The notes under the pieces were generated by a model. The model was given only the letters and a program-made list of their open reading frames with translations. It was not told the origin of the DNA and did no database searches. A program made the position numbers and the translations under genes. 64,000 bases of DNA from a virus, in IMG/VR virus record IMGVR_UViG_3300033141_003168, positions 1 through 64,000 of that record. One strand, 5' to 3'. Positions 16,306-34,230 of this stretch are shown here, piece by piece (positions within the stretch are counted from its first letter, which is position 1; every line of letters begins with the position of its first letter).

Positions 16306-17997
16306 ATGGCAGAACAACTTGCACCACTTGATTATACAAGCAGGGATCAAGAATCCATTTTTAACGACATGAAGGATAGGATTCAATTTTATGTTAAGGA
16401 ATGGACTGACCAAAACGAAACCGATCCCGGTATCTGGTTATTAAGATTATTTTCGGGTATGGGCGATGTTTTGCATTGGTACATAGATCGCATGGTTAGT
16501 GAAGGGTTTCTTCCCACGGCAATTACAAGATCGAGTGTAATAAAACTTTTGAAACTAATTGATTACACACCTGATTCTGCGATACCGGCTACAGTTGATC
16601 TCACTTTCACACTTGCATCAACACAAGTGGAGGACGTTATAATCCCGGCAGGTACAGAATGTCAAACACCATCAGGCGGAACGGAAACTGCAATTTTGTT
16701 TGAAACGTTAGTGGAATTAACAATTGCCGCAGGTTCTTTGAACGGTACGGTGTCGGCGGTAGAAGGGCAAACTTTAAGTGAGGATTTGGGCGTTTCGGAT
16801 GGTACACGGTATCAAAAATATATTCTTGCCGATTCAAGTATTATTGACGGTACAGTTCACATTTTTGTAGACGAAGGGTCAGGCGAAGTCGAATGGACTG
16901 AGGCTGAATCATTTGCAGGCAATGGGCCTACAGCAGAAATTTTTGTTCTCGAACTAACATCAGACGAACAGGTGCAAGTCGAATTTGGTGATAATGGGTC
17001 GGGGGCCGTACCCGCACCTAATGCTTCTATCAGGGCCGATTATAGAATAGGTGGCGGTGATGTAGGTAATGTTGGTGCTGAAACGATTACCGAGTTAAAT
17101 GATACGATATATTTGTTACTTGTTCCGATTTCGGTTTCAGTAAATAATGATACCGACGCGACAGGTGGACTTGATGAGGAATCAATCGCAGATTCTAAGC
17201 GCAAGGGGCCACGTTCGCTTCGTACTCGTTGGGGTTTAGTGACAGAAGAGGATTATCAGGCGGCGGCAGAAGGTGTTGACGGAGTTGCAAAAGCTCATGC
17301 GGAAGGGATAAATTACCGTGAAATAAATGTTTATATTGCGCCAGGCGGTGGTGGCATGCCTACGACTCAACTTAAACAAGATGTATTTGATTTTATTGAG
17401 TCAAGAAAAATTGTTACCACGAAAATAAATATCCTTGATCCTGAATACGTAGAGGTTGACGTTGAAGGCACGGTTTACATTTTTGATAATTTTACTCAAG
17501 CTGATGTTGAAACGGCTGTACTGGTTGCGCTTACAAGTCATTTTAGCTTTGAAAATCGTAGTTTTGGACAAGATGTTTATCTATCAGATATTTATGCTGT
17601 TATTGATAACGTTCCAGGAGTTAATTATGTTGATCTTACTAAAGAAACAATGGTTCCGGAAGTTAATTATATATTGTGGAGTTCTGACGCGACAATTGGT
17701 ACTTTTGTAATTACCAATGATACTGCTAATGAGACGTGGACTATTGAGTTTTTCAGTACGACGTTCAGGGTAACGGGTGCAGTTGCGGGATTGCAAACTA
17801 ATATAGGATCACTTAATGCTCCTTATTTTGTTGATGATTCTTCATTTGGATTTACAATATCTTCTGGTTCTCAGACTCCGGTAACAGGTGATAATGCGAC
17901 TGTACGCGCGGGGCCGCTATTGGATAATGTTGAAATTCTCAGTAATGAGATTGCCACCGGTACAATACTTCTTACTTTTGTAGGCGGTGCTGGTTAG
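16306..17997 (+). CDS. Baseplate wedge protein (gpJ/gp6-like)
   Basis: 'LDYTSRD', 'EWTDQNETDPG', 'FGDNGSGAVP', 'YRIGGG..GNV', 'GGLDEES', 'VTEEDY'. Confidence 0.9.
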   Translation: MAEQLAPLDYTSRDQESIFNDMKDRIQFYVKEWTDQNETDPGIWLLRLFSGMGDVLHWYIDRMVSEGFLPTAITRSSVIKLLKLIDYTPDSAIPATVDLTFTLASTQVEDVIIPAGTECQTPSGGTETAILFETLVELTIAAGSLNGTVSAVEGQTLSEDLGVSDGTRYQKYILADSSIIDGTVHIFVDEGSGEVEWTEAESFAGNGPTAEIFVLELTSDEQVQVEFGDNGSGAVPAPNASIRADYRIGGGDVGNVGAETITELNDTIYLLLVPISVSVNNDTDATGGLDEESIADSKRKGPRSLRTRWGLVTEEDYQAAAEGVDGVAKAHAEGINYREINVYIAPGGGGMPTTQLKQDVFDFIESRKIVTTKINILDPEYVEVDVEGTVYIFDNFTQADVETAVLVALTSHFSFENRSFGQDVYLSDIYAVIDNVPGVNYVDLTKETMVPEVNYILWSSDATIGTFVITNDTANETWTIEFFSTTFRVTGAVAGLQTNIGSLNAPYFVDDSSFGFTISSGSQTPVTGDNATVRAGPLLDNVEILSNEIATGTILLTFVGGAG

Positions 17998-19792: not shown

Positions 19793-21871
19793 ATGGCAAG
19801 AAAATCGAGAGACACTTTTGATGTGACTAAACGGCGAGATAATGTTATTGCGCAAACTGGTACGCCTGTCGTTGATGCAGACAGAAATGAAATGTACGAC
19901 ATTCTCAGGGAACATTTAAGAAACGCAGTTGAGAATGCTTTTGGTAACGCTGCGGTTGGTACAAGCTTTAATGTTGTCCAGAGCGGTACGGATACCACAA
20001 ATAACTTTGCTTTTCAGCCGGGGCCAGGTTTCATGCTTAAAGGTTATCAGATTAATATAACCGCAGGTGTCGAGTACAAAAACCAAACAATTACTGAACT
20101 TGCATCTGTAACCGCAATCGGCGCCGATGAAATAACGGCAGTTGATAAAAATTGGATAGTTGATGAACTCATAGGTGTTGAGATCACTTTCACTTCGGGA
20201 GTGTTGAACGGAAACTCATACACCGTTCTTAGCAACACCATAAATGTAATAACGCTCGATACTGATGTTGAAGCCCTCGGCGCACTTGTTGAGGATCGGT
20301 TTGAAGTCGGTGTGCATGATCTGACAACTCCAATTTCGCCTCGAACGGATGAAGTGTATCTTCACTTGTGGGAGGAAGAAGTTAGTGGATATGATGATCC
20401 TACCATCGTCGATCCTACAATTGGTATCTGGTTGGACGACGCATTGTGTAGGCGGACTCAGTTACGAGCGGTCGTGCAAGTTGCCGAGAACGGAACTACG
20501 CCTTCGGATACTTCAACACATTTTTACATTCTCATTGCGACACTGGACAGAATAGCAAATGACGATATAGTGACAGGCGAAATTACTGACGAAAGACCAA
20601 CAGTTGCAGGCCCGATTTCTGCGCTTGTACACAATTTACTTGCGAACTTGCAAGGTGGCAGTCCTGCGGGTGGTTATTACCACATGATAGATTCACAGTG
20701 GGATGCGATTGAAAACGCGCCCACAACACCAAGTGCTTCAAATCCGTTTACGACTGTTGCTGATGTTACCGGCCTTGTTGGAAACTGGCGTGGTTCAGTT
20801 CAAGCCGCAACGGATTTACCTTCAACGGGAAACACAGACAAAGACATAATCTTCGTTGAGGACGACGAAACAATGTATTGGTGGAACGCAGAAGGTGTGG
20901 ATCAAGGTTCGCCGTATTATAAATGGTATCCGATTTCGACAGTTTCTACAGCGTGGCACGACGCGCAACATTCTGCTATTTATAATTCCGCACTCGCTAT
21001 TACTGCGGATCAAGCGGGCAACACAACTATTGGAACTCACATGGCGGATAAAGATGCGCATCAAGCAGGACTTCAGGAAATACTCGGAGTAAATGGTGTT
21101 TCAACAGGTTTTAAGGCAGACATTACATATTCAGCTACTGGCGCTCCTGTAATAAAAGGATTTCACAATCCCGGTTCCGGAACTGGTATTGGGCTTGAAG
21201 GTGCTGCGGGACTGGCAGCAGATCCCGGATTCGGAGTAAAAGGAATATCACAGGCAGTTAACGGCGCAGGAATTTTTGGTGTTGGTTTGGCTGGAAATAG
21301 TGATGGTGGATTGTTTGATGGTTCTGCCGGATCGGGAATTGACGTTAATTTGGTTAATGGGACTATAGGTGGTGCAGGCACAAGACCATCTTACAAGGGT
21401 AGCGCGATTGCTTTGTTAAGTGATGTTGCTCCAACCATCGGCGAAGGAGATATATTTCTGTTCGGAAAAGTTTTTAACAGCAATTGGTACTCCGTTTCTA
21501 AAACGGTAGCAGAAATGGGTACTATGGAAATTGTCATACCGGCAGATACAACCTTAAAAGGTGTCAAGATAGAGGTTTGTGCTTTATGTTTGTTGGTCTC
21601 AGGCCAGGCCTCATCATCTATTTTGAACATTACTGTTGATGAAGCGGGAGTTCCAGGCATTTTAGCAACCGATGAATATACCGTAACATGGCACAGCACT
21701 GCCAGTGGAATATCAGCATCGGAAGACAAAAGGGATCAGGCAAAAATTATGTATTATTTGACAGCGGACGGATGGGATGGAACTGTTGTGAATAAAATTC
21801 AAATCGGCCCGTATACCGCATCCACCACAGGAATGGGAAATATAATGCTTGCAGTTTCAGTGCTTATATAA
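19793..21871 (+). CDS. Tail fibre / receptor-binding protein
   Basis: N-terminal 'SRDTFD...QTGTPVVDADRNE' and 'VYLHLWEEEV...DP' (DUF6519-like); Gly-rich central repeats; last gene of tail operon. Confidence 0.7.
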   Translation: MARKSRDTFDVTKRRDNVIAQTGTPVVDADRNEMYDILREHLRNAVENAFGNAAVGTSFNVVQSGTDTTNNFAFQPGPGFMLKGYQINITAGVEYKNQTITELASVTAIGADEITAVDKNWIVDELIGVEITFTSGVLNGNSYTVLSNTINVITLDTDVEALGALVEDRFEVGVHDLTTPISPRTDEVYLHLWEEEVSGYDDPTIVDPTIGIWLDDALCRRTQLRAVVQVAENGTTPSDTSTHFYILIATLDRIANDDIVTGEITDERPTVAGPISALVHNLLANLQGGSPAGGYYHMIDSQWDAIENAPTTPSASNPFTTVADVTGLVGNWRGSVQAATDLPSTGNTDKDIIFVEDDETMYWWNAEGVDQGSPYYKWYPISTVSTAWHDAQHSAIYNSALAITADQAGNTTIGTHMADKDAHQAGLQEILGVNGVSTGFKADITYSATGAPVIKGFHNPGSGTGIGLEGAAGLAADPGFGVKGISQAVNGAGIFGVGLAGNSDGGLFDGSAGSGIDVNLVNGTIGGAGTRPSYKGSAIALLSDVAPTIGEGDIFLFGKVFNSNWYSVSKTVAEMGTMEIVIPADTTLKGVKIEVCALCLLVSGQASSSILNITVDEAGVPGILATDEYTVTWHSTASGISASEDKRDQAKIMYYLTADGWDGTVVNKIQIGPYTASTTGMGNIMLAVSVLI

Positions 21872-22221
21872 AAAACAACAACTCAATGATTTTTTTGTAT
21901 AATTAATATCACGTTTTATTTGTTAAGGCTTTTTAATCAAAATGTTTGAAATTTTTACTTGCGAGTAAATCATTTGCAAAACGTCCAAGCACTATTTGTC
22001 AATGTATAATTAATAAAGTTTTATAACAATTCTAACAAACGATTTTAGCCCTTGCCGATATAAACAACGTGCAAGGGTTTTTCGTTGCGTGGGCGCACCC
22101 TGACACGTATTAAAAACAAGTCTGTGCCGTATGCTCACACCCATTGTTTGAATTGTTGAGAGTTATTGAACGATTTCTTTCAGATTACATTCTACACGAG
22201 CATTAGTCAAAATTCCCAAAA

Positions 22222-22252
22222 ATAAACTACTACGGAAACCGGGGTAATTAAA
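22222..22252 (+). repeat. 31-bp imperfect palindrome, copy 4
   Basis: ataaactactacggAAAccggggtaattaaa. Confidence 0.95.
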
Positions 22253-22359
22253 ATGCGCTTAGAAACATTAGCTAATAACGTCGCGTTACCGCAACACATT
22301 TAAGACGGAAACACAAAAATGCTTGGTTTTATATAGCTTTTTTATTTTTTGAAAATGTG

Positions 22360-22388
22360 TTTACAAATGTCACTACAAACTGTATAAT
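22360..22388 (+). promoter_or_regulatory. Sigma70-type promoter pointing into the non-coding region
   Basis: TTTACA (22360-22365), 17 bp, TATAAT (22383-22388), AT-rich upstream tract. Confidence 0.7.
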
Positions 22389-22394
22389 GAATGC

Positions 22395-23465
22395 GATTGA
22401 TTGAACATTGAAAAATGCCGTAAGCAACAAGGCAGAACGGATCAGGAGCGGGGCGCAACGCACACAAGTTATAGTAATCAGTTTAGTCCCCATAGAAAAA
22501 CGATTCGATAAGCAACAAACTGTTACCTGTAGCATCGGACATGATGTTAAATGTTACAGACCGGTTGCGACGTTTTGATATTTGCTCAGGAAGCTAAATA
22601 TCATTATCCGCAGTTGTAAAATTAAATCGACCCCGACGCGAGGCGCAAACGTATGATTCCCCGAAAGGGATAAAATGATCTTCCAGAAAGATCAACACCG
22701 AACGTTCTGAGAGTTTATGAGATAACAGTGAAACGAAAATAAAGTTTCTGCTTACGCCCATACAGGACAACGTAAACCGGATAAGAAAATTAAGTGCGTG
22801 ATTTGGAATGTCGCACCTGTGAGTAATCCTTACGCGACGGGATCGCGGGACGAAAGCCTTAATGAAAGCCCACGTTTTCAGCGAACTGGAGGTTCAACGA
22901 AAATTAAATATAATTCATTAGCAATGAATGTATAGTGCGCGGACATAAGGGACAGGCCGAGAATATAAAGCAAAAACAAGTAAATTGTTTCCAGAGTATT
23001 GAAAGCGGCACAAGTAGCAAGGCCGACAAACTTATCACGAACAACACTTAACGGTACCTGAAAATACACAAGATGCACGGTGATCCGCTTGGGAGCTTCT
23101 TTTTCTCTAACAGGATAATAGTTTACGTTGTTATATAGAGGCCATAAGTTTCAGTGAGATTTGTCTGGTAAACAAATTTGACAGTGCGACCTGAGATAAA
23201 TGGCAGAAACAAATCGAAACAAGTTTTTAGAAATATGAGAAACGACAGAATGAGTGCATAGGCACAACGGCGATTGAACGCGGTGGCGGTGGAAAATAGA
23301 TTCTGTATTTCGTTTCCTACAGAAAACGGAAATCGGTTTTAATAAAAATGTAATTATACCCTGCGCCGATTCTGAGAAAAGTTTTTCTTTTTTTATTTTC
23401 GGCGCAGTCATAATTATTTTTCAAAAAAGTTTTCGCGTGGACGGTTTTTTTCCGTCCGCCTTTTT
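22395..23465 (+). ncRNA. Candidate large (~0.9-1.1 kb) structured non-coding RNA, family unassigned
   Basis: No + strand ORF of 60 aa or more; promoter upstream, terminator downstream; many local hairpins and an 11-bp perfect long-range helix (22767-22777 with 23121-23131). Confidence 0.65.
23437..23465 (+). terminator. Rho-independent terminator
   Basis: gtggacgg-ttttttt-ccgtccgc stem-loop followed by cttttt. Confidence 0.6.
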
Positions 23466-23620
23466 GTCTAGGTTTTTTCTGAGAAATTTTGTTCTGAGAA
23501 ATTTTCGTTATCCGTTTTTGTAAACGTGCTATATGTTTTTATTAATCTTTATGTCCTTGACCTTGACCTTGACTTTAAGTATTAATACTTCCGCACGCAT
23601 AAGCGCGCACGTACACGCAC

Positions 23621-24004
23621 GTGAGAAAAAAAGAAAAAAAGGAGAGAAAAATGAAAAAAGAAACAAAAGCGTGTGAAAATTTAACTGGTGTGAGACTTAA
23701 AAAACTTCTCCTGCGGGAAATTATTTCAGAAATTCAGCGGTACATGAAAACAAAACTTCTGGAGTTTCAAGGCGAAATGTACACGAATCCGAAAACGGGA
23801 GACGTTGTTCTGGAAGGATTTGCTCAGTTTAAAAAACGCAAGAAGATTTTCTGGACAGCGATTTATTCACAATCCGGAGAAAATATTAAATGCGAATTTG
23901 TTGGTTTTTCTCAGGATTTCCACGAAGCGCACAGAACGATTAACGAATTTTATACCGGATTCTGGAAAAAACAGTTTGACGAGGAGGTGGAGAAAATCGC
24001 ATGA
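23621..24004 (+). CDS. Hypothetical protein
   Basis: ORF with SD AAGGAG before ATG 23651 (likely true start). Confidence 0.55.
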   Translation: MRKKEKKERKMKKETKACENLTGVRLKKLLLREIISEIQRYMKTKLLEFQGEMYTNPKTGDVVLEGFAQFKKRKKIFWTAIYSQSGENIKCEFVGFSQDFHEAHRTINEFYTGFWKKQFDEEVEKIA

Positions 24005-24590
24005 GTGATGAGAATGAATGGATTGAGGGTTGGGAACAAAGGAAAAAAAGGAATACATTGGTTTGATAAATTTGTAGTGATTGCGGTCGAACAATTATCA
24101 AAGGATCCTCCTTACAAAGGATTATCCCACTACAAAATTTATAAGAAAATCTGTGAGATGGCTGAAATAGAATAAAAAGACAATGGTGTTCTTAATAATT
24201 GTAAATATCAAAACGGAATTATGCACATGACAAAGCAGGGCGCAAAATCCTTGCATTTATCAAACAATTTAGGAATTCGTAAATATTTTCCTATACTCCA
24301 ACGCACACATGTGTGCGATCATGCACATTAATTTGATTACCATTTTTTTTAGTTGGATAGCAAGCTATCTTGTCAGAACAATCTGAAAAAATTCATTAGT
24401 CATGATGAAGGGCAGAATCGGCATTGCCCGATGAAAAAGTATAGCTATTGTTTCTGCAATGAAGCAAGCAATAATGACAAAGATGACAAAGCCAATGAAG
24501 AAAAGACATCCCATCGTATGATAGCTCATTCGTGTTACTCCTAATAATTGGAGTTCAACTTACGCACGTGTTTTCCAATATGCAATACGC

Positions 24591-24854
24591 CTATTTTACC
24601 AGGACGCCCATTTTAACTGCCGAGAAGAACATAACGTAACCGCAGTTATTACATGCCATGTGAATGACGGGGAGTCCGTTTACAATATCGAGATTCGTCG
24701 TATCACCATCTTTCTTTAAGGTCGGCAGAAAACTTATTGAACCGGTTGACCATTCGTTGGAATTGCATTTGTCGCATGTATCCTTAATACATTTAGAATT
24801 GAGCCATTGCTGAACTTTAGCAGAATCTTCTGGTGATAAGCTCATATCAGCCAT
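24591..24854 (-). CDS. Small zinc-ribbon protein (IS cargo)
   Basis: CDKC...CNNCGY; SD AAGGAG on - strand. Confidence 0.65.
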   Translation of the reverse strand: MADMSLSPEDSAKVQQWLNSKCIKDTCDKCNSNEWSTGSISFLPTLKKDGDTTNLDIVNGLPVIHMACNNCGYVMFFSAVKMGVLVK

Positions 24855-25189
24855 TTTGTTTCTCTCCTTATTTAAATTTCAAATGTGAGGTAAATTTCAT
24901 GCTATCTAAAATCGACAAAATCAACAAGTTCAGAGAACATGTCGAAAACACGTACAATAATTGTCCGGCTGATCGACCTTCACCCTCAGGCTGTTTCTGC
25001 GAAATCCTCTGTTATGAGTTTCATTCACAACCGATCAATCCACGCATGAGGATAAAGACAGGCAATGACGGTTTTGAAACGGGACTCACATTCAAAGAAC
25101 TCGCCGCTAAGTGGGGCATCAGCGTTACGTTTCTCGGCGAACTTATTGCGGATCATTGCAGAAGACTCGACAAAGAGCAGTCGATTTAG
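24833..25189 (+). CDS. Hypothetical protein with HTH-like C-terminus (IS cargo)
   Basis: 'GLTFKELAAKWGISVTFLGELI'; true start likely ATG 24899. Confidence 0.5.
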   Translation: MISSYQPFCFSPYLNFKCEVNFMLSKIDKINKFREHVENTYNNCPADRPSPSGCFCEILCYEFHSQPINPRMRIKTGNDGFETGLTFKELAAKWGISVTFLGELIADHCRRLDKEQSI

Positions 25190-25341: not shown

Positions 25342-25593
25342 AACAATATCCTCCATGTGTGGTTTGGTGCAATTCCAATGTTAAGAGAGATGTTCCAAAA
25401 GGGTCAAGCAACCCCTAATATTATTTAGTGCATATAAGTACTTTGACGTAAATTATCTGGTTGAAAACTAAAAAAAAGGATGTGTTTCAACGTGAATAAT
25501 AAGAAACGCAGAAGAGACATTTTTGACAGAGGGCGCTCATCACCGTATAATCCTCACAAGAAAAAATCCGTGGAAAGAAAGAGAAAAATTCCG

Positions 25594-26319
25594 GTGACTG
25601 TTTGCATTGCTGCTTTATGTGAAGAAGGAAGTTTGGTAATTGGCGTAGCAGATAAAGAGGTGACCGATAGTGTCATAAAATACAACTTGCCAAGAGGAAA
25701 ATTGTTTCCTATTGTGAAGCAGAAGATAAGTATGATGATTGCAGGGGATGTAAGTCTCCAGACAGAAATCTACCAGAGATTAAAAAGAGATGTTGATTCA
25801 CGCTTAGAGCAGAATGCGGACGAAGATATTCCAGTTAAAGAAATCGCCTATCTGTATGATCGATATATGAGAGAGATTCCGGGTGAGAATAGCGAAGAAG
25901 AAGTTGAAATCCCTGATGTCGCAGCGATAGTTGCAGGGTTTGATTCTACTGGCGGACACATTTGGGAAATTCAAAGCGGAGCCGAAACTCCACGATGCTT
26001 GGATTTACCCGGATGTGCGGCGATAGGTATAGGTGGTGAAATTGCAGTATTACAACTTAAACGATTTCAACATACTCCAGACATGCCATTCACTCAGGCG
26101 TTGTTGTTGTCATACGTGGCAAAGAGGCGTGTGGATGAAATGATGCTTGGTATCGGAGAGCATACTACAATAAATGTTTGGGGACCGGTGCTTCCAGATA
26201 AATGTGGAATTGGCTTGGAAGACGAATTAGAAGAACTGTACAAGTACATAGTTAAGAAAGAATGGGAAATAATGGGGGATGCTGCAAATCAACTGGAATC
26301 TTTTTGCAGAGATTTTTAA
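25594..26319 (+). CDS. Proteasome beta-subunit-like Ntn-hydrolase (IS cargo)
   Basis: GTG start gives M-T-V-C-I-A-A; 'VIGVADKEVT', 'MMIAGD', 'IVAGFD', 'AIGIG'. Confidence 0.6.
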   Translation: MTVCIAALCEEGSLVIGVADKEVTDSVIKYNLPRGKLFPIVKQKISMMIAGDVSLQTEIYQRLKRDVDSRLEQNADEDIPVKEIAYLYDRYMREIPGENSEEEVEIPDVAAIVAGFDSTGGHIWEIQSGAETPRCLDLPGCAAIGIGGEIAVLQLKRFQHTPDMPFTQALLLSYVAKRRVDEMMLGIGEHTTINVWGPVLPDKCGIGLEDELEELYKYIVKKEWEIMGDAANQLESFCRDF

Positions 26320-30289: not shown

Positions 30290-30484
30290 ATGAATGAGAA
30301 AAGAAGCGGATTATCAAAAAAAGAAAGTTACATGCAACTTCGAATTGATTCTAAATTGCGTGAGCGATTAGACAAAACAGTGGTGTGGGGTTACAGGTCA
30401 AAATTCATTCGGCAAGCAATCACAGAAAAATTAGATAGGGAGGAAAAGGATGTCGCAGACAAAAGCAATTCGGAAGTTAATTAA
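30290..30484 (+). CDS. Ribbon-helix-helix (CopG-like) DNA-binding protein
   Basis: 'MQLRIDSKLRERLD....RSKFIRQAITEKL'. Confidence 0.7.
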   Translation: MNEKRSGLSKKESYMQLRIDSKLRERLDKTVVWGYRSKFIRQAITEKLDREEKDVADKSNSEVN

Positions 30485-32678
30485 AAAAGTGAATCGGATC
30501 GAAAAGGAATTAAACGGACGATTGATCGAACGTCACGAAGAAGTACACGGTACAATCGTTTGTTTGCTTGCCGAACAACACGGTCTTTTTATTGGACCGC
30601 CCGGTACCGGGAAATGCTATGGAAAAAATACGCCTATTTTGATGTTTGATGGGCGAGTGAAAAGTGTTCAAGACATTGTTGTTGGAGAGCGCCTTATGGG
30701 CGATGATAGTACTTCGCGCAAAGTCCTTAATACTACCGTGGGAACAGGTTTGCTGTATAAAATCATCCCTGTAAAAGGTGAGTCTTTTGTTGTGAATGAA
30801 GACCACATTTTATCGTTGGTTAAAAGCGGCAGACAAGTTCGGAGCCACGGGAAGGTTGTAGGCTATCGAGATTATGATAGAATATTTAATATTCCGGTTA
30901 AAGATTTTTTATCTATGCCGGATCAGATTAGATACAAGTTATATCGGAAAGGAGTTCAATTCCCAAGTAAAAGTATTGCAATTGACCCGTATATCCTTGG
31001 TATATGGTTAGGCGGTGGTTGTAAGTATAATGCGTCAATCACATCTTTTGATAAAGAAGTGGTTGATGAGATTTATCGATACGCTGATTTTTTAGGATTA
31101 CAAATTACCGCGACGAAAGAGAAAGGGAGATATGCAATCACGACTGGATATACTGGAAATCCGATACATAAATTTTCCTTTCAAAAGTTACTTCGTGAAT
31201 ACGGTTTAATAATGAATAAACATATTCCCGATAAATATAAGTATAATTCGCGGCCAATAAGATTAGAATTACTTGCAGGTTTGATAGACGCCGATGGAAG
31301 CAAAGAAGAAAAAAGTGAGATTTTAAGTTATACATGTTCGAATGAAAAACTCATGGACGATGCAATTTACCTTTGTAGATCATTAGGATTTGCTGTTTAT
31401 AAGAAAAGCAGAAATACGCGATGCAATGGGAAAGACTTTCCATCATTTAGAATTTCTATAAGTGGGGATTGTTCCGTTATACCGATCAAAATTCCAAGAA
31501 AAAAATGTAAGAAACGGAAACAAATCAAGAATCCATTTTTCACAGGCTTCAAGATTGAAGAGGTGGGGTTGGGTGACTATTACGGTTTTAGTTTGGACGG
31601 AAACCACCTTCACTTATTGGGTGATTTTACCGTATCTCACAACTCTTTACAAACAGAGCTAATCTGTGAAAGAATAACGGGTATAGAATACTTTGAAAGA
31701 CTCTTAACGAAGTTCAGCACTCCTGAAGAATTATTCGGGCCGGTATCGCTTCCGAAACTGAAAGAAGGAAAGCATGAACGCATTCTGAAAAACATGATGC
31801 CCGTTGCGCACGTCGCGCGGATAGACGAAATATGGAAAGGTAACAGTTCGATTCTTAACTCGCTGCTATCTCTAATAAATGAACGGGTATTTTACAACGG
31901 TACAAAAGGAGTGTTCGCCTCACCATTGATTTCAATTTTCGGTACGTCAAATGAAATGCCGGAAAGCGACGAACTTTCTGCATTGTATGATCGGTTTTCA
32001 CTGCGGTATATGGTCGATTACGTCGGGGAAGATTCATCTTTCAAACGACTGTTACAACTTAATGGCGCAGGGTCAAGCAAAATAACGAAACTAAAGTTTG
32101 ACGAATTGTGTGTTCTGCATGAATACAGGATGGGTGAAGTTAATATCGGTTCCGATATTTTGGACATGGTGCTTCAATTACGCGGTCAGTTGAAACGTGA
32201 CGGGATTACAGTTTCGGATAGACGTTGGAGAACCGCGTTAGACATTTTGAAAGTAGAAGCAATGTTGCAAGAACGCAACGATGTTCACCAAGACGATCTT
32301 GAGATACTCGCGCACATGTTATGGAACCAACCTTCAGAGAAGAAGCAGGTAATGAGCGCGGTCATGCAAATATCCAACCCGGCACTTATGAGGGCAATCG
32401 AAGTGAAGGATGTGTGCGCAGATGTTTATTCAAAAGCAATGAGCGCACCGGACGACGAGAAGGACGGGTACGGTATCGAGGCGAATAAGAAACTCGGAAC
32501 CGGTATTAAAGAATTAGAAGGACTCGTAACAGTTCATCAGTCGAAAAGATTGGGTGAAATCATTAGTCAGTTGCGGAGATGGAAGTCAGAGGTTTTACAT
32601 CATTGTCTTGGGATTTCACCAATGGAAGACGAAGATGACGACGAGGAAATCGACGATGAAGCGGAGGTTCTGGTTTAA
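30450..32678 (+). CDS. RavA/MoxR-family AAA+ ATPase with intein
   Basis: 'GPPGTGK[intein]S', 'LLTKFSTPEELFGP', 'IDEIWKGNSSILNSLL..INER', 'SNEMP', 'ALYDRF', 'VSDRRW'. Confidence 0.9.
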   Translation: MSQTKAIRKLIKKVNRIEKELNGRLIERHEEVHGTIVCLLAEQHGLFIGPPGTGKCYGKNTPILMFDGRVKSVQDIVVGERLMGDDSTSRKVLNTTVGTGLLYKIIPVKGESFVVNEDHILSLVKSGRQVRSHGKVVGYRDYDRIFNIPVKDFLSMPDQIRYKLYRKGVQFPSKSIAIDPYILGIWLGGGCKYNASITSFDKEVVDEIYRYADFLGLQITATKEKGRYAITTGYTGNPIHKFSFQKLLREYGLIMNKHIPDKYKYNSRPIRLELLAGLIDADGSKEEKSEILSYTCSNEKLMDDAIYLCRSLGFAVYKKSRNTRCNGKDFPSFRISISGDCSVIPIKIPRKKCKKRKQIKNPFFTGFKIEEVGLGDYYGFSLDGNHLHLLGDFTVSHNSLQTELICERITGIEYFERLLTKFSTPEELFGPVSLPKLKEGKHERILKNMMPVAHVARIDEIWKGNSSILNSLLSLINERVFYNGTKGVFASPLISIFGTSNEMPESDELSALYDRFSLRYMVDYVGEDSSFKRLLQLNGAGSSKITKLKFDELCVLHEYRMGEVNIGSDILDMVLQLRGQLKRDGITVSDRRWRTALDILKVEAMLQERNDVHQDDLEILAHMLWNQPSEKKQVMSAVMQISNPALMRAIEVKDVCADVYSKAMSAPDDEKDGYGIEANKKLGTGIKELEGLVTVHQSKRLGEIISQLRRWKSEVLHHCLGISPMEDEDDDEEIDDEAEVLV
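30615..31643 (+). mobile_element. Intein with LAGLIDADG homing endonuclease (343 aa)
   Basis: Starts CYGKNTPI, ends 'GDFTVSHN' followed by Ser; internal 'LLAGLIDADGS'. Confidence 0.92.
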
Positions 32679-32715: not shown

Positions 32716-34230
32716 GTGGAAATGGAATTAGACAAAAACACGGTCAATAACGACGCATGGGATTTAGGTACTTACGCAAACCTCGAAAAGGACTCCGACG
32801 TACTACAAGAGGTTTCGAGCGAAGGTACGGATACATTAAATACCTTTCCGCACTTGATGGAAGACTTGTTTTCATCATATTTTAAGTTCGCGCCGAAAGT
32901 GAAAGAAGAGGTTTCTTCGGAAGTAAGTCTGAACAAAAGCCTCATCGAGGAAACCATGACCACCAGTGAATACGGCAACTTGAGAATGGCAACACAGTTA
33001 GACGAATTCAATTCGGCAATGGCAGTTGCGGTGACCTCAAAGGAACTCGTAGAAAAGATCAGAGAATCAAGCGAACTTTCAGAGGCGGCGCGGGACGCGA
33101 ATCAAGTGAACGCATTGTCCACAGAACAGGCCGACATTGACGCAAGCCTTGAGTCGTTAAGAGACTTGTTAAAAAACAAGCTGAAAAAACCTTTAGAGAA
33201 CAAATTGAAAAGGAAGCAGGGGCAGTTACAGAAGGACGCGAAGAAATGTTCATCTCAACTTGCCGCAAGTGAGAAGCAAATGCAAAAGTCCATAAGCGGG
33301 ACACGCGACCAACAACGGGTAGCAATGAGGGCGGCGGTTCAGGCCGCGTCAGACAAGGTAGATGAAATGTCGCAACAGTGTGACGCATGGGGCAGTGAAC
33401 CGGGTGCGATTACTAAGATGCCATTGGGCCAAAAAATTGCACTTGCGAAAAGGTTGTCAAACGCCGACAAGTTAAAAAAGATTGCTGAGTATGCGGGGCG
33501 TATAAAGAACATCGCGTTTCGTAAACAACAAACAAGAATCAAACGTGGTGCAACAGAAATAGAGTCCATTGAAACCGGCAACGACTTGGGTAAGATGTTA
33601 CCAAGTGAACTCGCACTTTTAACACCGGAACTTGAAGACGAATTTCTCCGTAAATATTCCGAGAAAGGATTATTGCAATACAGCCTGAACTCGAAAGAGA
33701 AATTAGGTCGTGGGCCGATGGTAGTTTGCATTGATACTTCCGGTTCGATGAGTGGTCAACGGGAGTACTGGTCAAAGGCCGTCGCACTCGCACTTTCGAG
33801 TATTGCAATAAAAGAGAAACGAGGGTTTGTTTTGATCTTCTTTTCATCTGGTAGTGATTGTGTTGAATTTGAGTTTCCCATAGGCGGGAAAGATCGACTT
33901 CAAAACATGATGTCTGCAATGGAAACATTTATCGGTGGCGGTACGGATTTTGAAGTACCGTTGGTGAGGGCCATGAGTTATATTGAAGGTTCGGAATACA
34001 AGAAGGCAGACATCATTTTCATTACCGACGATGAGTGTGATGTTAGTGATAGCTTTGCTAAAGAATTTGATGCCCTAAAAGAAGAAAAAAGATTTTCTTG
34101 CTTTGGAATTTCGGTGGAAGCTTCGCATAACACGCTTGATACTTTTTGCGACAAAGTATTTCCTATTCACGAAATGGCAAACGACGTGGCAGTGTTGGAC
34201 GGTTTATTCAGTGTAGATTATTCAAAATAA
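32716..34230 (+). CDS. vWA-domain protein (ViaA-like partner of the AAA+ ATPase)
   Basis: MIDAS 'CIDTSGSMSG', 'GGGTDFEVPL', 'ADIIFITDD'. Confidence 0.88.
   Translation: MEMELDKNTVNNDAWDLGTYANLEKDSDVLQEVSSEGTDTLNTFPHLMEDLFSSYFKFAPKVKEEVSSEVSLNKSLIEETMTTSEYGNLRMATQLDEFNSAMAVAVTSKELVEKIRESSELSEAARDANQVNALSTEQADIDASLESLRDLLKNKLKKPLENKLKRKQGQLQKDAKKCSSQLAASEKQMQKSISGTRDQQRVAMRAAVQAASDKVDEMSQQCDAWGSEPGAITKMPLGQKIALAKRLSNADKLKKIAEYAGRIKNIAFRKQQTRIKRGATEIESIETGNDLGKMLPSELALLTPELEDEFLRKYSEKGLLQYSLNSKEKLGRGPMVVCIDTSGSMSGQREYWSKAVALALSSIAIKEKRGFVLIFFSSGSDCVEFEFPIGGKDRLQNMMSAMETFIGGGTDFEVPLVRAMSYIEGSEYKKADIIFITDDECDVSDSFAKEFDALKEEKRFSCFGISVEASHNTLDTFCDKVFPIHEMANDVAVLDGLFSVDYSK

What the first reader, a model, noticed from the sequence alone, without database searches (positions are those of the whole stretch)
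22360..23465. Candidate previously undescribed ~1-kb structured non-coding RNA with its own promoter and terminator
Seen: in an otherwise tightly packed genome, 21872-23620 has no credible ORF. A near-consensus promoter (TTTACA-17-TATAAT, 22360-22388) points into it and a GC stem plus T tract (23437-23465) closes it. Between them is a dense run of helices with A-rich linkers: tgatattt/aaatatca (22576-83/22596-603), ccc-GAAA-ggg (22660-69), tgatctt/aagatca (22676-94), gtgcg/cgcac (22794-816), cgcga/tcgcg (22833-47), attcatt/aatgaat (22913-29), atttgt/acaaat (23159-77). Nested long-range helices include acaacgtaaac/gtttacgttgt (22767-77/23121-31; 11 bp perfect, extendable outward by gcc/ggc and ctta/taag), aagcgg/ccgctt (23003-08/23085-90) and possibly tgccgt/acggcg (about 22416/23267) closing the ends. 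Known: phages carry large RNAs of this size class (GOLLD, ROOL). Inference: this is a large multi-domain RNA. I cannot match it by eye to RNase P, tmRNA or group I/II introns, and no tRNA, reverse transcriptase or HNH gene is adjacent, so it may be a new class. Palindrome copy 4 lies ~110 bp upstream of the promoter and may regulate it.
Basis: partly seen in the sequence, partly recalled or inferred. Interest (0 to 1): 0.88.

Follow-up and report, generated by a model that had tools for sequence, protein, structure and literature searches.

The report
New 1-kb structured phage RNA gene
The largest gene-free gap of this uncultured 110-kb phage is most likely a gene for a folded non-coding RNA of about 1,070 bases; its promoter, invariant core blocks and base-paired helices are kept in the one distant relative I could fetch, and it matches no catalogued RNA family.

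Summary
Window 21872-23620 has no credible ORF under genetic codes 11, 4 or TAG=Q. An 11/12 sigma-70 promoter (22360-22388) points into it and a strong intrinsic terminator (23437-23465) closes it.

I found one other lineage: L004/L097/L098, about 99% identical to each other, from a phage whose proteins are 31-77% identical to this one. It carries a colinear ORF-free homologue in the same position, with the identical TTTACA-17-TATAAT promoter and invariant blocks of 8-15 nt.

The consensus fold of the two sequences is far better than column-shuffled alignments (-115.9 against -72.7 +/- 7.4 kcal/mol, 0 of 100 shuffles). It is also better than the reverse strand (-85.7). Five coding control alignments gave z of +0.24 to -1.27. 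Nine uninterrupted helices carry two or more compensatory double changes.

Rfam gives nothing for either lineage. There is no conserved coding signal, no tRNA in the window and no reverse transcriptase in the genome.

Limits: only two lineages, no expression data, a provisional fold, and no canonical terminator in the relative.

Verdict: a real new family of large phage non-coding RNA, of the GOLLD/ROOL kind but not homologous to them. Its function is unknown. The scan has flagged other large phage RNAs on other DNA, but none resembles this sequence.

The parts
22340..22359 (+). A/T-rich tract directly upstream of the -35 hexamer (UP-element-like)
   Evidence: Read from the sequence. The equivalent stretch in L004 is also A/T-rich. 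A UP-element function is inferred.
22360..22388 (+). Sigma-70-type promoter TTTACA-17-TATAAT; inferred start near 22395
   Evidence: 11 of 12 matches. Both hexamers and the spacing are identical in L004/L097. The same TTTACA-17-TATAAT type sits in front of ordinary genes at 73087(+), 79111(-) and 82975(-) of the genome.
22395..23434 (+). Body of the non-coding RNA (about 1,040 nt; about 1,071 nt to the end of the terminator)
   Evidence: Colinear homology with L004:13371-14418. Alifold energy -115.9 against -72.7 +/- 7.4 in shuffles, and -85.7 for the reverse complement. No conserved ORF. Single copy in the genome.
22421..22754 (+). Domain I, closed by the long-range helices 22421-26/22749-54 and 22433-39/22703-09; holds invariant GGAUCAGGAGCG (22439-50) and AGUGAAACG (22727-35) and variable hairpins
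   Evidence: Each closing helix has two double changes. The domain-wide consensus z is only -1.7 because the interior aligns poorly. Single-sequence z is -3.1.
22766..23132 (+). Domain II, closed by 22766-77/23121-32 (12 bp) stacked on 22778-82/23083-87; holds hairpin 22833-47, the conserved GAAA loop at 22848-58, and invariant UCGCACCUG (22811-19), GUUUCCAG (22987-94) and AAGUAGCAAGGCCGA (23012-26)
   Evidence: Four and two double changes in the two closing helices, and two in hairpin 22833-47. Domain consensus z -6.1, 0 of 100 shuffles, reverse complement clearly worse. Invariant blocks listed.
23141..23204 (+). Domain III, a long hairpin (23141-45/23200-04 and 23149-54/23191-96)
   Evidence: Six double changes across the two stem segments. 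Consensus z -5.8. Single-sequence z -3.4.
23205..23350 (+). Variable 3' region with a conserved small hairpin GUGC-AUAG-GCAC (23254-65)
   Evidence: Consensus z for 23211-23425 is -3.5.
23351..23416 (+). Long conserved 3' hairpin (core 23361-69/23399-407) followed by conserved GCAGUCAUA
   Evidence: Inverted repeat I2. Kept in L004 with one double change and two wobble changes. Not a canonical terminator in L004.
23418..23434 (+). 3' tail (UUUUCAAAAAAGUUUUC) that may pair with 22409-22415 to close the molecule (tentative)
   Evidence: Alifold pairs UGAAAAA/UUUUCA in the window and UGACAAA/UUUGCA in L004, with one double change. The register is ambiguous. The motif AAAAAAGUUUU is present in both lineages.
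23437..23465 (+). Intrinsic terminator (window lineage only)
   Evidence: 8-bp stem with 6 G-C pairs, then a T tract. No equivalent in L097.

Best explanation
Window 22360-23465 is a free-standing gene for a non-coding RNA of about 1,070 nt.

Shown:
- The stretch is non-coding.
- It is homologous and colinear between two phage lineages whose proteins are only 31-77% identical.
- It keeps an identical sigma-70 promoter in both.
- It keeps a plus-strand secondary structure through compensatory substitutions. That structure comprises two large domains closed by long-range helices, a third hairpin domain and a long 3' hairpin.
- Between the helices lie invariant, mostly unpaired blocks of 8-15 nt.

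Inferred:
- The host RNA polymerase starts near 22395 and, in this phage, stops at the intrinsic terminator at 23437-23465.
- The RNA folds into a compact particle whose invariant single-stranded blocks and the conserved GAAA loop form the tertiary core or a binding surface.
- It acts in trans during infection through its architecture, as a scaffold or decoy for a protein or as a self-assembling particle of the ROOL/GOLLD kind, rather than by short antisense pairing.

My odds: about 0.85 that this is a conserved structured RNA element on the + strand. About 0.6-0.65 that it is a stand-alone, trans-acting RNA. Within that, roughly one third each for an architectural or self-assembling particle, a protein-binding RNP component, and a ribozyme.
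For: No ORF under three genetic codes. The best tblastx E between lineages is 0.22, stops occur in all frames of both, and only 7 of 22 indels are multiples of three.

Homologue in conserved synteny: tail fibre, then the RNA, then a small conserved protein. The promoter hexamers and spacing are identical. The same promoter type is used for ordinary genes elsewhere in the genome.

Alifold consensus energy is -115.9 against -72.7 +/- 7.4 (n = 100, minimum -98.0). The reverse complement gives -85.7. Five coding control alignments give z from +0.24 to -1.27.

Nine uninterrupted helices of 5 bp or more carry two or more double changes, against 2.5 +/- 1.2 (maximum 6) in shuffles. The longest helix is 12 bp against 6.6 +/- 1.1. 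By domain, consensus z is -6.1 (II), -5.8 (III), -3.5 (3' part) and -1.7 (I).

All three SNPs that fall in predicted pairs among the 99%-identical variants L004/L097/L098 keep the pair.

Single-sequence stability: z -2.98 for the window RNA and -2.05 for L004.

Rfam gives no match for either lineage at E up to 10. There is no tRNA in the window and no reverse transcriptase in the genome.
Against: No transcript evidence of any kind was available.

Only two independent sequences exist, so R-scape-type statistics are impossible, and RNAalifold on two rows favours covarying pairs. The count of double-changed pairs alone is only z = 1.5 above shuffles.

When the window's own full minimum-energy fold is projected onto L004, the changed pairs stay canonical no more often than in slid controls (41% against 35-43%). 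So only a subset of helices is supported.

Forcing the shared helices costs about 50 kcal/mol relative to each sequence's own minimum-energy fold.

The first single-sequence z was only -0.86.

The relative has no canonical terminator between the RNA and the next ORF. In the window no sigma-70-like promoter was detected between the terminator and the next gene. Co-transcription with the downstream genes therefore cannot be excluded.
Confidence: 0.68

Rival explanations
1. It is a very long structured 5' leader of the downstream block of small genes (23651 onwards). It would act in cis, for example by regulated termination or antitermination at the hairpins at its 3' end, rather than as a separate RNA.
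For: It has the same orientation as the downstream genes. The L004/L097 lineage has no canonical terminator between the RNA and the next ORF. In the window no sigma-70-like promoter was found between the terminator and the start codon at 23651. Two successive hairpins (23361-407 and 23437-59) end the element.
Against: The window has a strong intrinsic terminator. The first downstream ORF differs between the lineages: L004 has an extra 85-aa ORF. About 1 kb with three domains closed by long-range helices and 15-nt invariant blocks is far beyond known leaders or antiterminator RNAs, which are about 70-200 nt (from established knowledge of HK022 put and EAR). Conservation stops right after the 3' hairpin and tail.
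Confidence: 0.15
2. It is an origin-associated transcript, a structured pre-primer RNA of the ColE1 RNA II type, or another replication element at the border between the structural and early/replication modules.
For: It lies at a module border in the largest non-coding gap of the genome. It has a strong constitutive-type promoter.
Against: No iterons or repeated boxes lie inside it; only short repeats occur near the terminator. There is no turn in cumulative GC skew. The nearest recognisable replication gene, the sliding-clamp-like protein, is 5.5 kb away and the polymerase is 21 kb away. The plus-strand-specific compensatory pairing over 1 kb with invariant single-stranded blocks is not what an origin needs.
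Confidence: 0.05
3. It is not a functional RNA. It would be conserved DNA (regulatory sites) or decaying gene remnants, and the apparent structure would be an artefact of aligning only two sequences.
For: Only two lineages are available. Overall identity in the global alignment is just 45%. The full single-sequence minimum-energy fold is not preserved.
Against: Column shuffles that keep the conservation pattern never reach the observed consensus energy (0 of 100). Coding controls treated the same way give z near 0. The signal is strand-specific. The 12-bp helix spanning 343 nt keeps all pairs through four double changes. No trace of a frame is shared.
Confidence: 0.08

Closest known systems
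GOLLD RNA (Rfam RF01998)
   Same: A large (about 800 nt), multi-domain RNA without an ORF, carried by phages and prophages. It is expressed as its own transcript and its function is unknown. It has long-range closing helices and conserved unpaired stretches. Cryo-EM shows RNA-only multimers (bioRxiv 10.1101/2024.12.08.627333, listed).
   Different: No match to the GOLLD covariance model at E up to 10 in either lineage. This RNA is longer, at about 1,070 nt. No tRNA genes are nearby; GOLLD often lies beside them (from memory). It was found in only two lineages of one uncultured phage clade.
ROOL RNA (Rfam RF03087)
   Same: A large ornate non-coding RNA, often phage-associated, of unknown function. 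It was found by comparative genomics (PMC5737381, listed) and forms RNA-only cages.
   Different: No covariance-model match. ROOL is about 580 nt, so this RNA is nearly twice as long. No sequence motif is shared.
OLE RNA and other large bacterial non-coding RNAs (HEARO, raiA), RNase P RNA, group I and group II introns, tmRNA
   Same: The size class and the mix of compensatory helices with invariant single-stranded blocks.
   Different: None of their Rfam models matches at E up to 10. The element has its own promoter and no flanking exons. No reverse transcriptase is present in the genome, and no HNH or IscB-type partner gene is adjacent.
Cis-acting phage RNAs such as HK022 putL/putR, and the ColE1 RNA II pre-primer
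   Same: Promoter-proximal structured RNAs of mobile elements that act through their fold.
   Different: These are about 70 nt (put) or 550 nt (RNA II), with simple stem-loop sets (from established knowledge). This RNA has three domains closed by long-range helices over about 1 kb, and a terminator of its own in the window lineage.

Membership tests
GOLLD (RF01998) | Match to the family covariance model (sequence plus structure) | tested here: not met
   cmscan of window 21700-23800 and L004 13200-14520, both strands, E up to 10: no GOLLD row. No hit at gathering threshold in the whole window.
GOLLD / ROOL | Frequent adjacency to tRNA genes in phages and prophages (typical, not strictly defining; from memory) | tested here: not met
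   ARAGORN finds no tRNA or tmRNA in the 64-kb window.
GOLLD / ROOL | RNA-only homo-oligomeric cage | not testable with these tools
   Needs native gels, SEC-MALS or cryo-EM of the in vitro transcript.
ROOL (RF03087) | Match to the family covariance model | tested here: not met
   No ROOL row at E up to 10.
RNase P RNA, tmRNA, group I and II introns, OLE, HEARO | Match to the respective Rfam covariance models | tested here: not met
   None listed at E up to 10 for either lineage. The only weak rows are terminator-like sRNA models: rli42 at 34 bits against an 80-bit cutoff, over the two 3' hairpins.
Retroelement template RNAs (retron msr/msd, DRT/UG-type non-coding RNAs, group II introns) | A reverse transcriptase gene in the same element | tested here: not met
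   PF00078 has no match in the complete 110-kb genome at E up to 0.01, and the tool's control genomes do give matches.
Large structured ('ornate') non-coding RNA, as a kind and not a homologous family | More than 500 nt without conserved coding capacity | tested here: met
Large structured ('ornate') non-coding RNA, as a kind and not a homologous family | Secondary structure conserved through compensatory changes, specific to one strand | tested here: met
   The limit is that only two independent lineages are available.
Large structured ('ornate') non-coding RNA, as a kind and not a homologous family | Expressed as a discrete transcript | not testable with these tools
   No sequencing run was listed. 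Only the conserved promoter and the window's terminator speak for it.

The most novel reading that the evidence does not exclude
This is a free-standing, trans-acting RNA of more than 1 kb with a defined tertiary fold, possibly multimeric or catalytic. That would make it a new class in the ROOL/GOLLD league and longer than either, encoded by an uncultured clade of 110-kb phages.
Probability: 0.4. Interest if true: 0.82.

Novelty: new variant of a known kind. Interest (0 to 1): 0.68.

Why it matters
Few RNA classes above 500 nt are known in bacteria and phages apart from rRNA, RNase P and introns. The recent finding that GOLLD, ROOL and OLE build RNA-only assemblies made each new class a target for structural and functional work.

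This candidate is longer than any of them. It has clear boundaries, a consensus-type promoter, invariant core blocks and long-range helices that hold up in comparison with a relative. It can therefore go straight to in vitro transcription, chemical probing and cryo-EM.

It also marks a phage clade with at least 75 detectable baseplate homologues in public assemblies. A family alignment could be built from these to test the fold statistically.

Tried and rejected
Searches for more homologues:
- Scans of IMG/VR with the tail-fibre protein, the baseplate wedge, the clamp, two protein alignments and two conserved RNA patterns found only the contig of L004. The 86 hits to the 15-mer alone were chance, as shown by nhmmer.
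- The single metagenome scan with GTTTCCAG-N10-25-AGTAGCAAGGCC gave 11 loci. Only two were real, L097 and L098, and both are about 99% identical to L004.
- The genome-contig scan gave only relatives at 27-28% identity, without the RNA.
- GenBank phages show no DNA match to either RNA. Their proteins reach 33% identity or less.
The contigs of the 75 wedge homologues at 30-74% identity could therefore not be fetched.

Expression: no sequencing run was listed for window 20500-25000, and no RNA holder was listed.

Ideas rejected:
- A Ro60/Y-RNA link suggested by a weak Ro60-vWA hit in 32716-34230. The protein is the vWA partner of a MoxR ATPase, and no TROVE or Ro60 match was found in Pfam or PDB.
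- Pairing of the invariant GUUUCC with the dispersed CGGAAACCG palindromes. The relative lacks those palindromes.
- A retroelement template. The genome has no reverse transcriptase.
- Extra copies in the genome. There are none.
- The conserved downstream small protein as an RNA-binding partner. It has no family hit. Its AlphaFold model (pLDDT 72) is a generic alpha+beta, NTF2/cystatin-like fold with no PDB match at E of 0.001 or below.

Methods that did not help:
- mafft-qinsi was not usable because MXSCARNA is missing.
- A home-made structure-aware pairwise alignment only improved the consensus energy to -129.

Full report
**Setting**

The window is the first 64 kb of a 110,331-bp IMG/VR phage record. 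Its 'terminal repeat' is only 114 bp, so it is probably an assembly overlap of a circular or permuted genome. The genes are almost all on the + strand. They include a tape measure, baseplate wedge and tail proteins upstream of the finding, and a sliding-clamp-like protein, a MoxR-type ATPase and a DnaE-like polymerase downstream. Cultured phages are at most 33% identical in these proteins.

**The observation**

Between the stop of a 692-aa tail-fibre-like gene (21871) and the next start (23651) there is no credible ORF under codes 11, 4 or TAG=Q. It is the largest ORF-free stretch of the genome.

The promoter TTTACA-17-TATAAT lies at 22360-22388 with 11 of 12 matches. It is preceded by an A/T tract. 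The terminator lies at 23437-23465, with 8 bp, 6 of them G-C, and a T tract. The same TTTACA-17-TATAAT type precedes ordinary genes with short leaders elsewhere in the genome, so it is a promoter type this phage really uses.

On the window alone the folding-energy signal is modest. The z-score is -0.86 for 22395-23390. It is -2.98 once the full 3' hairpin is included (22395-23434). By part it is -3.1, -0.6, -3.4 and -4.1.

**A relative**

The tail-fibre protein has one homologue cluster, at 48% identity. Its IMG/VR contig (L004) has the same gene order. The proteins on either side are 39-77% identical upstream and 31-65% identical downstream.

Behind the fibre gene and an extra tubulin/FtsZ-like ORF, L004 has an ORF-free stretch that aligns colinearly with window 22340-23434. 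Both promoter hexamers and their spacing are identical. Blocks of 8-15 nt are invariant:
- GGAUCAGGAGCG
- AGUGAAACG
- UCGCACCUG
- CGAAAGCC
- GUUUCCAG
- AAGUAGCAAGGCCGA
- GCAGUCAUA

The sequence between these blocks is largely randomised, and overall identity is 45%. A metagenome scan with two of the blocks recovered only two more copies, both 99% identical to L004. One of them lies on a 109.7-kb contig. So there are two independent lineages.

**Not coding**

The best tblastx E between the two versions is 0.22. Every frame of both has 7-25 stops. Only 7 of 22 indels are multiples of three.

**Conserved structure**

RNAalifold on the sequence-only MAFFT alignment gives -115.9 kcal/mol. One hundred column shuffles that preserve the gap and conservation pattern give -72.7 +/- 7.4, with a best value of -98.0. 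The reverse complement gives -85.7. Five coding alignments from the same two phages, with 54-65% DNA identity, give z from +0.24 to -1.27 under the same procedure.

Nine uninterrupted helices of 5 bp or more carry at least two double (compensatory) changes, against 2.5 +/- 1.2 (maximum 6) in shuffles. The longest helix is 12 bp against 6.6 +/- 1.1.

The best-supported pairs, in window coordinates:

| Helix | Size and double changes |
|---|---|
| 22766-77/23121-32 | 12 bp, spans 343 nt, four |
| 22778-82/23083-87 | two |
| 22421-26/22749-54 | two |
| 22433-39/22703-09 | two |
| 22833-37/22843-47 | two |
| 23141-45/23200-04 | three |
| 23149-54/23191-96 | three |
| 23361-69/23399-407 | one |

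By part, the consensus z is -6.1 for domain II, -5.8 for domain III, -3.5 for the 3' part and -1.7 for domain I, whose interior aligns poorly. Among the near-identical L004/L097/L098 copies, the three SNPs that fall in predicted pairs all keep the pair.

**What does not fit**

- Projecting the window's own complete minimum-energy fold onto L004 shows no excess of preserved changed pairs: 41% against 35-43% in slid controls. Forcing the shared helices costs about 50 kcal/mol against each sequence's unconstrained optimum. The global model is therefore provisional.
- With two rows, RNAalifold picks up many 'compensatory' pairs even in shuffles: 57 against 47 +/- 7.
- The relative lacks a canonical terminator after the RNA.
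- The window shows no sigma-70-like promoter between the terminator and the next gene. A cis-acting leader role therefore cannot be dismissed.

**Comparison with known families**

No Rfam 15 family reaches its threshold in the window. With E up to 10 on the 2.1-kb region and on the L004 homologue, nothing from GOLLD, ROOL, OLE, HEARO, RNase P, tmRNA or the introns appears. Only sub-threshold terminator-like sRNA models show up, over the 3' hairpins.

There is no tRNA in the window, no reverse transcriptase in the genome and no second copy. A catalogue of 10,006 candidate viral structured RNAs from IMG/VR contains only motifs of 29-151 nt and requires three or more unique regions (PMC10690425). 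Full-text searches found no description of such an RNA.

**Interpretation**

The best explanation is a free-standing gene for a structured RNA of about 1,070 nt. It would be transcribed by the host polymerase from a strong promoter. It would fold into two large domains closed by long-range helices plus a hairpin domain and a long 3' hairpin, with invariant purine-rich single strands and a conserved GAAA loop as the likely tertiary core. It would act through its architecture.

It is of the same kind as GOLLD and ROOL but is not homologous to them. Its function is not shown. The leader, origin-transcript and artefact rivals are weighed in their own sections.

**Earlier notes of this scan**

Other agents reported other large phage RNAs on unrelated DNA. 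No look-alike of this sequence is on record. The '31-bp palindrome' noted on this window is a dispersed repeat with 15 copies in the genome, one of them at 22222-22252. It is absent from the relative's loci and so is unlinked to the RNA.

Noticed in passing
window 30450-32678 (and L097 4746-6011): The MoxR-type AAA+ ATPase gene is interrupted by an intein: a Hint domain plus a LAGLIDADG homing endonuclease at residues 56-338. The homologue in the relative is 421 aa and lacks the intein. The next gene (32716-34230) is its vWA-domain partner.
   Followed up: partly
L004 12016-13206: The relative carries an extra 396-aa ORF between the tail-fibre gene and the RNA gene, with a weak Tubulin/FtsZ GTPase-domain match (PF00091, E 2.9e-7, just under the cutoff). 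The window phage has nothing at that position.
   Followed up: no
window 21896-22085: Two identical copies of TGTATAATTAATA lie at 21896 and 22003, 107 nt apart. They are followed by a hairpin and T tract (about 22050-22085, CCCTTGC...GCAAGGGTTTTT). This may be one or two small transcripts, or the terminator of the tail operon. There is only a weak isrJ-like Rfam row (E 0.58).
   Followed up: no
window 22222-22252 and 14 other sites in the genome: A dispersed palindrome with the core CGGAAACCG has 15 copies in the 110-kb genome, mostly at gene boundaries. None occurs in about 30 kb of the related phage (L104, L097).
   Followed up: partly
window 23608-23623; L097 about 1861-1877: A small G+C-rich hairpin (CACGU-ACACGC-ACGUG; in the relative CGCGUACACGCGCG) sits just upstream of the Shine-Dalgarno sequence of the first gene after the RNA in both lineages. 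It is a possible translational or processing signal. Three CCTTGA repeats lie at 23555-23575.
   Followed up: no
window 23370-23495: Direct repeats of TTCTGAGAAA(A/T)(G/T)TTT lie at 23370 and 23477, with a further partial copy at 23493. They flank the terminator. The first copy forms part of the conserved 3' hairpin.
   Followed up: no
whole genome (G000): The 'direct terminal repeat' is only 114 bp. This looks like an assembly overlap of a circular or circularly permuted genome rather than a true long terminal repeat.
   Followed up: partly
window 25523-25551: A perfect 12/12 sigma-70 consensus (TTGACA-17-TATAAT) lies inside the annotated start region of ORF 25480-26319. The real start of that gene is probably further downstream.
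   Followed up: no
window 16306-17997: The baseplate-wedge protein has at least 75 homologues at 30-74% identity in Logan, ENA and JGI assemblies, on contigs of up to 270 kb. The phage clade is therefore much broader than the two lineages I could fetch.
   Followed up: partly
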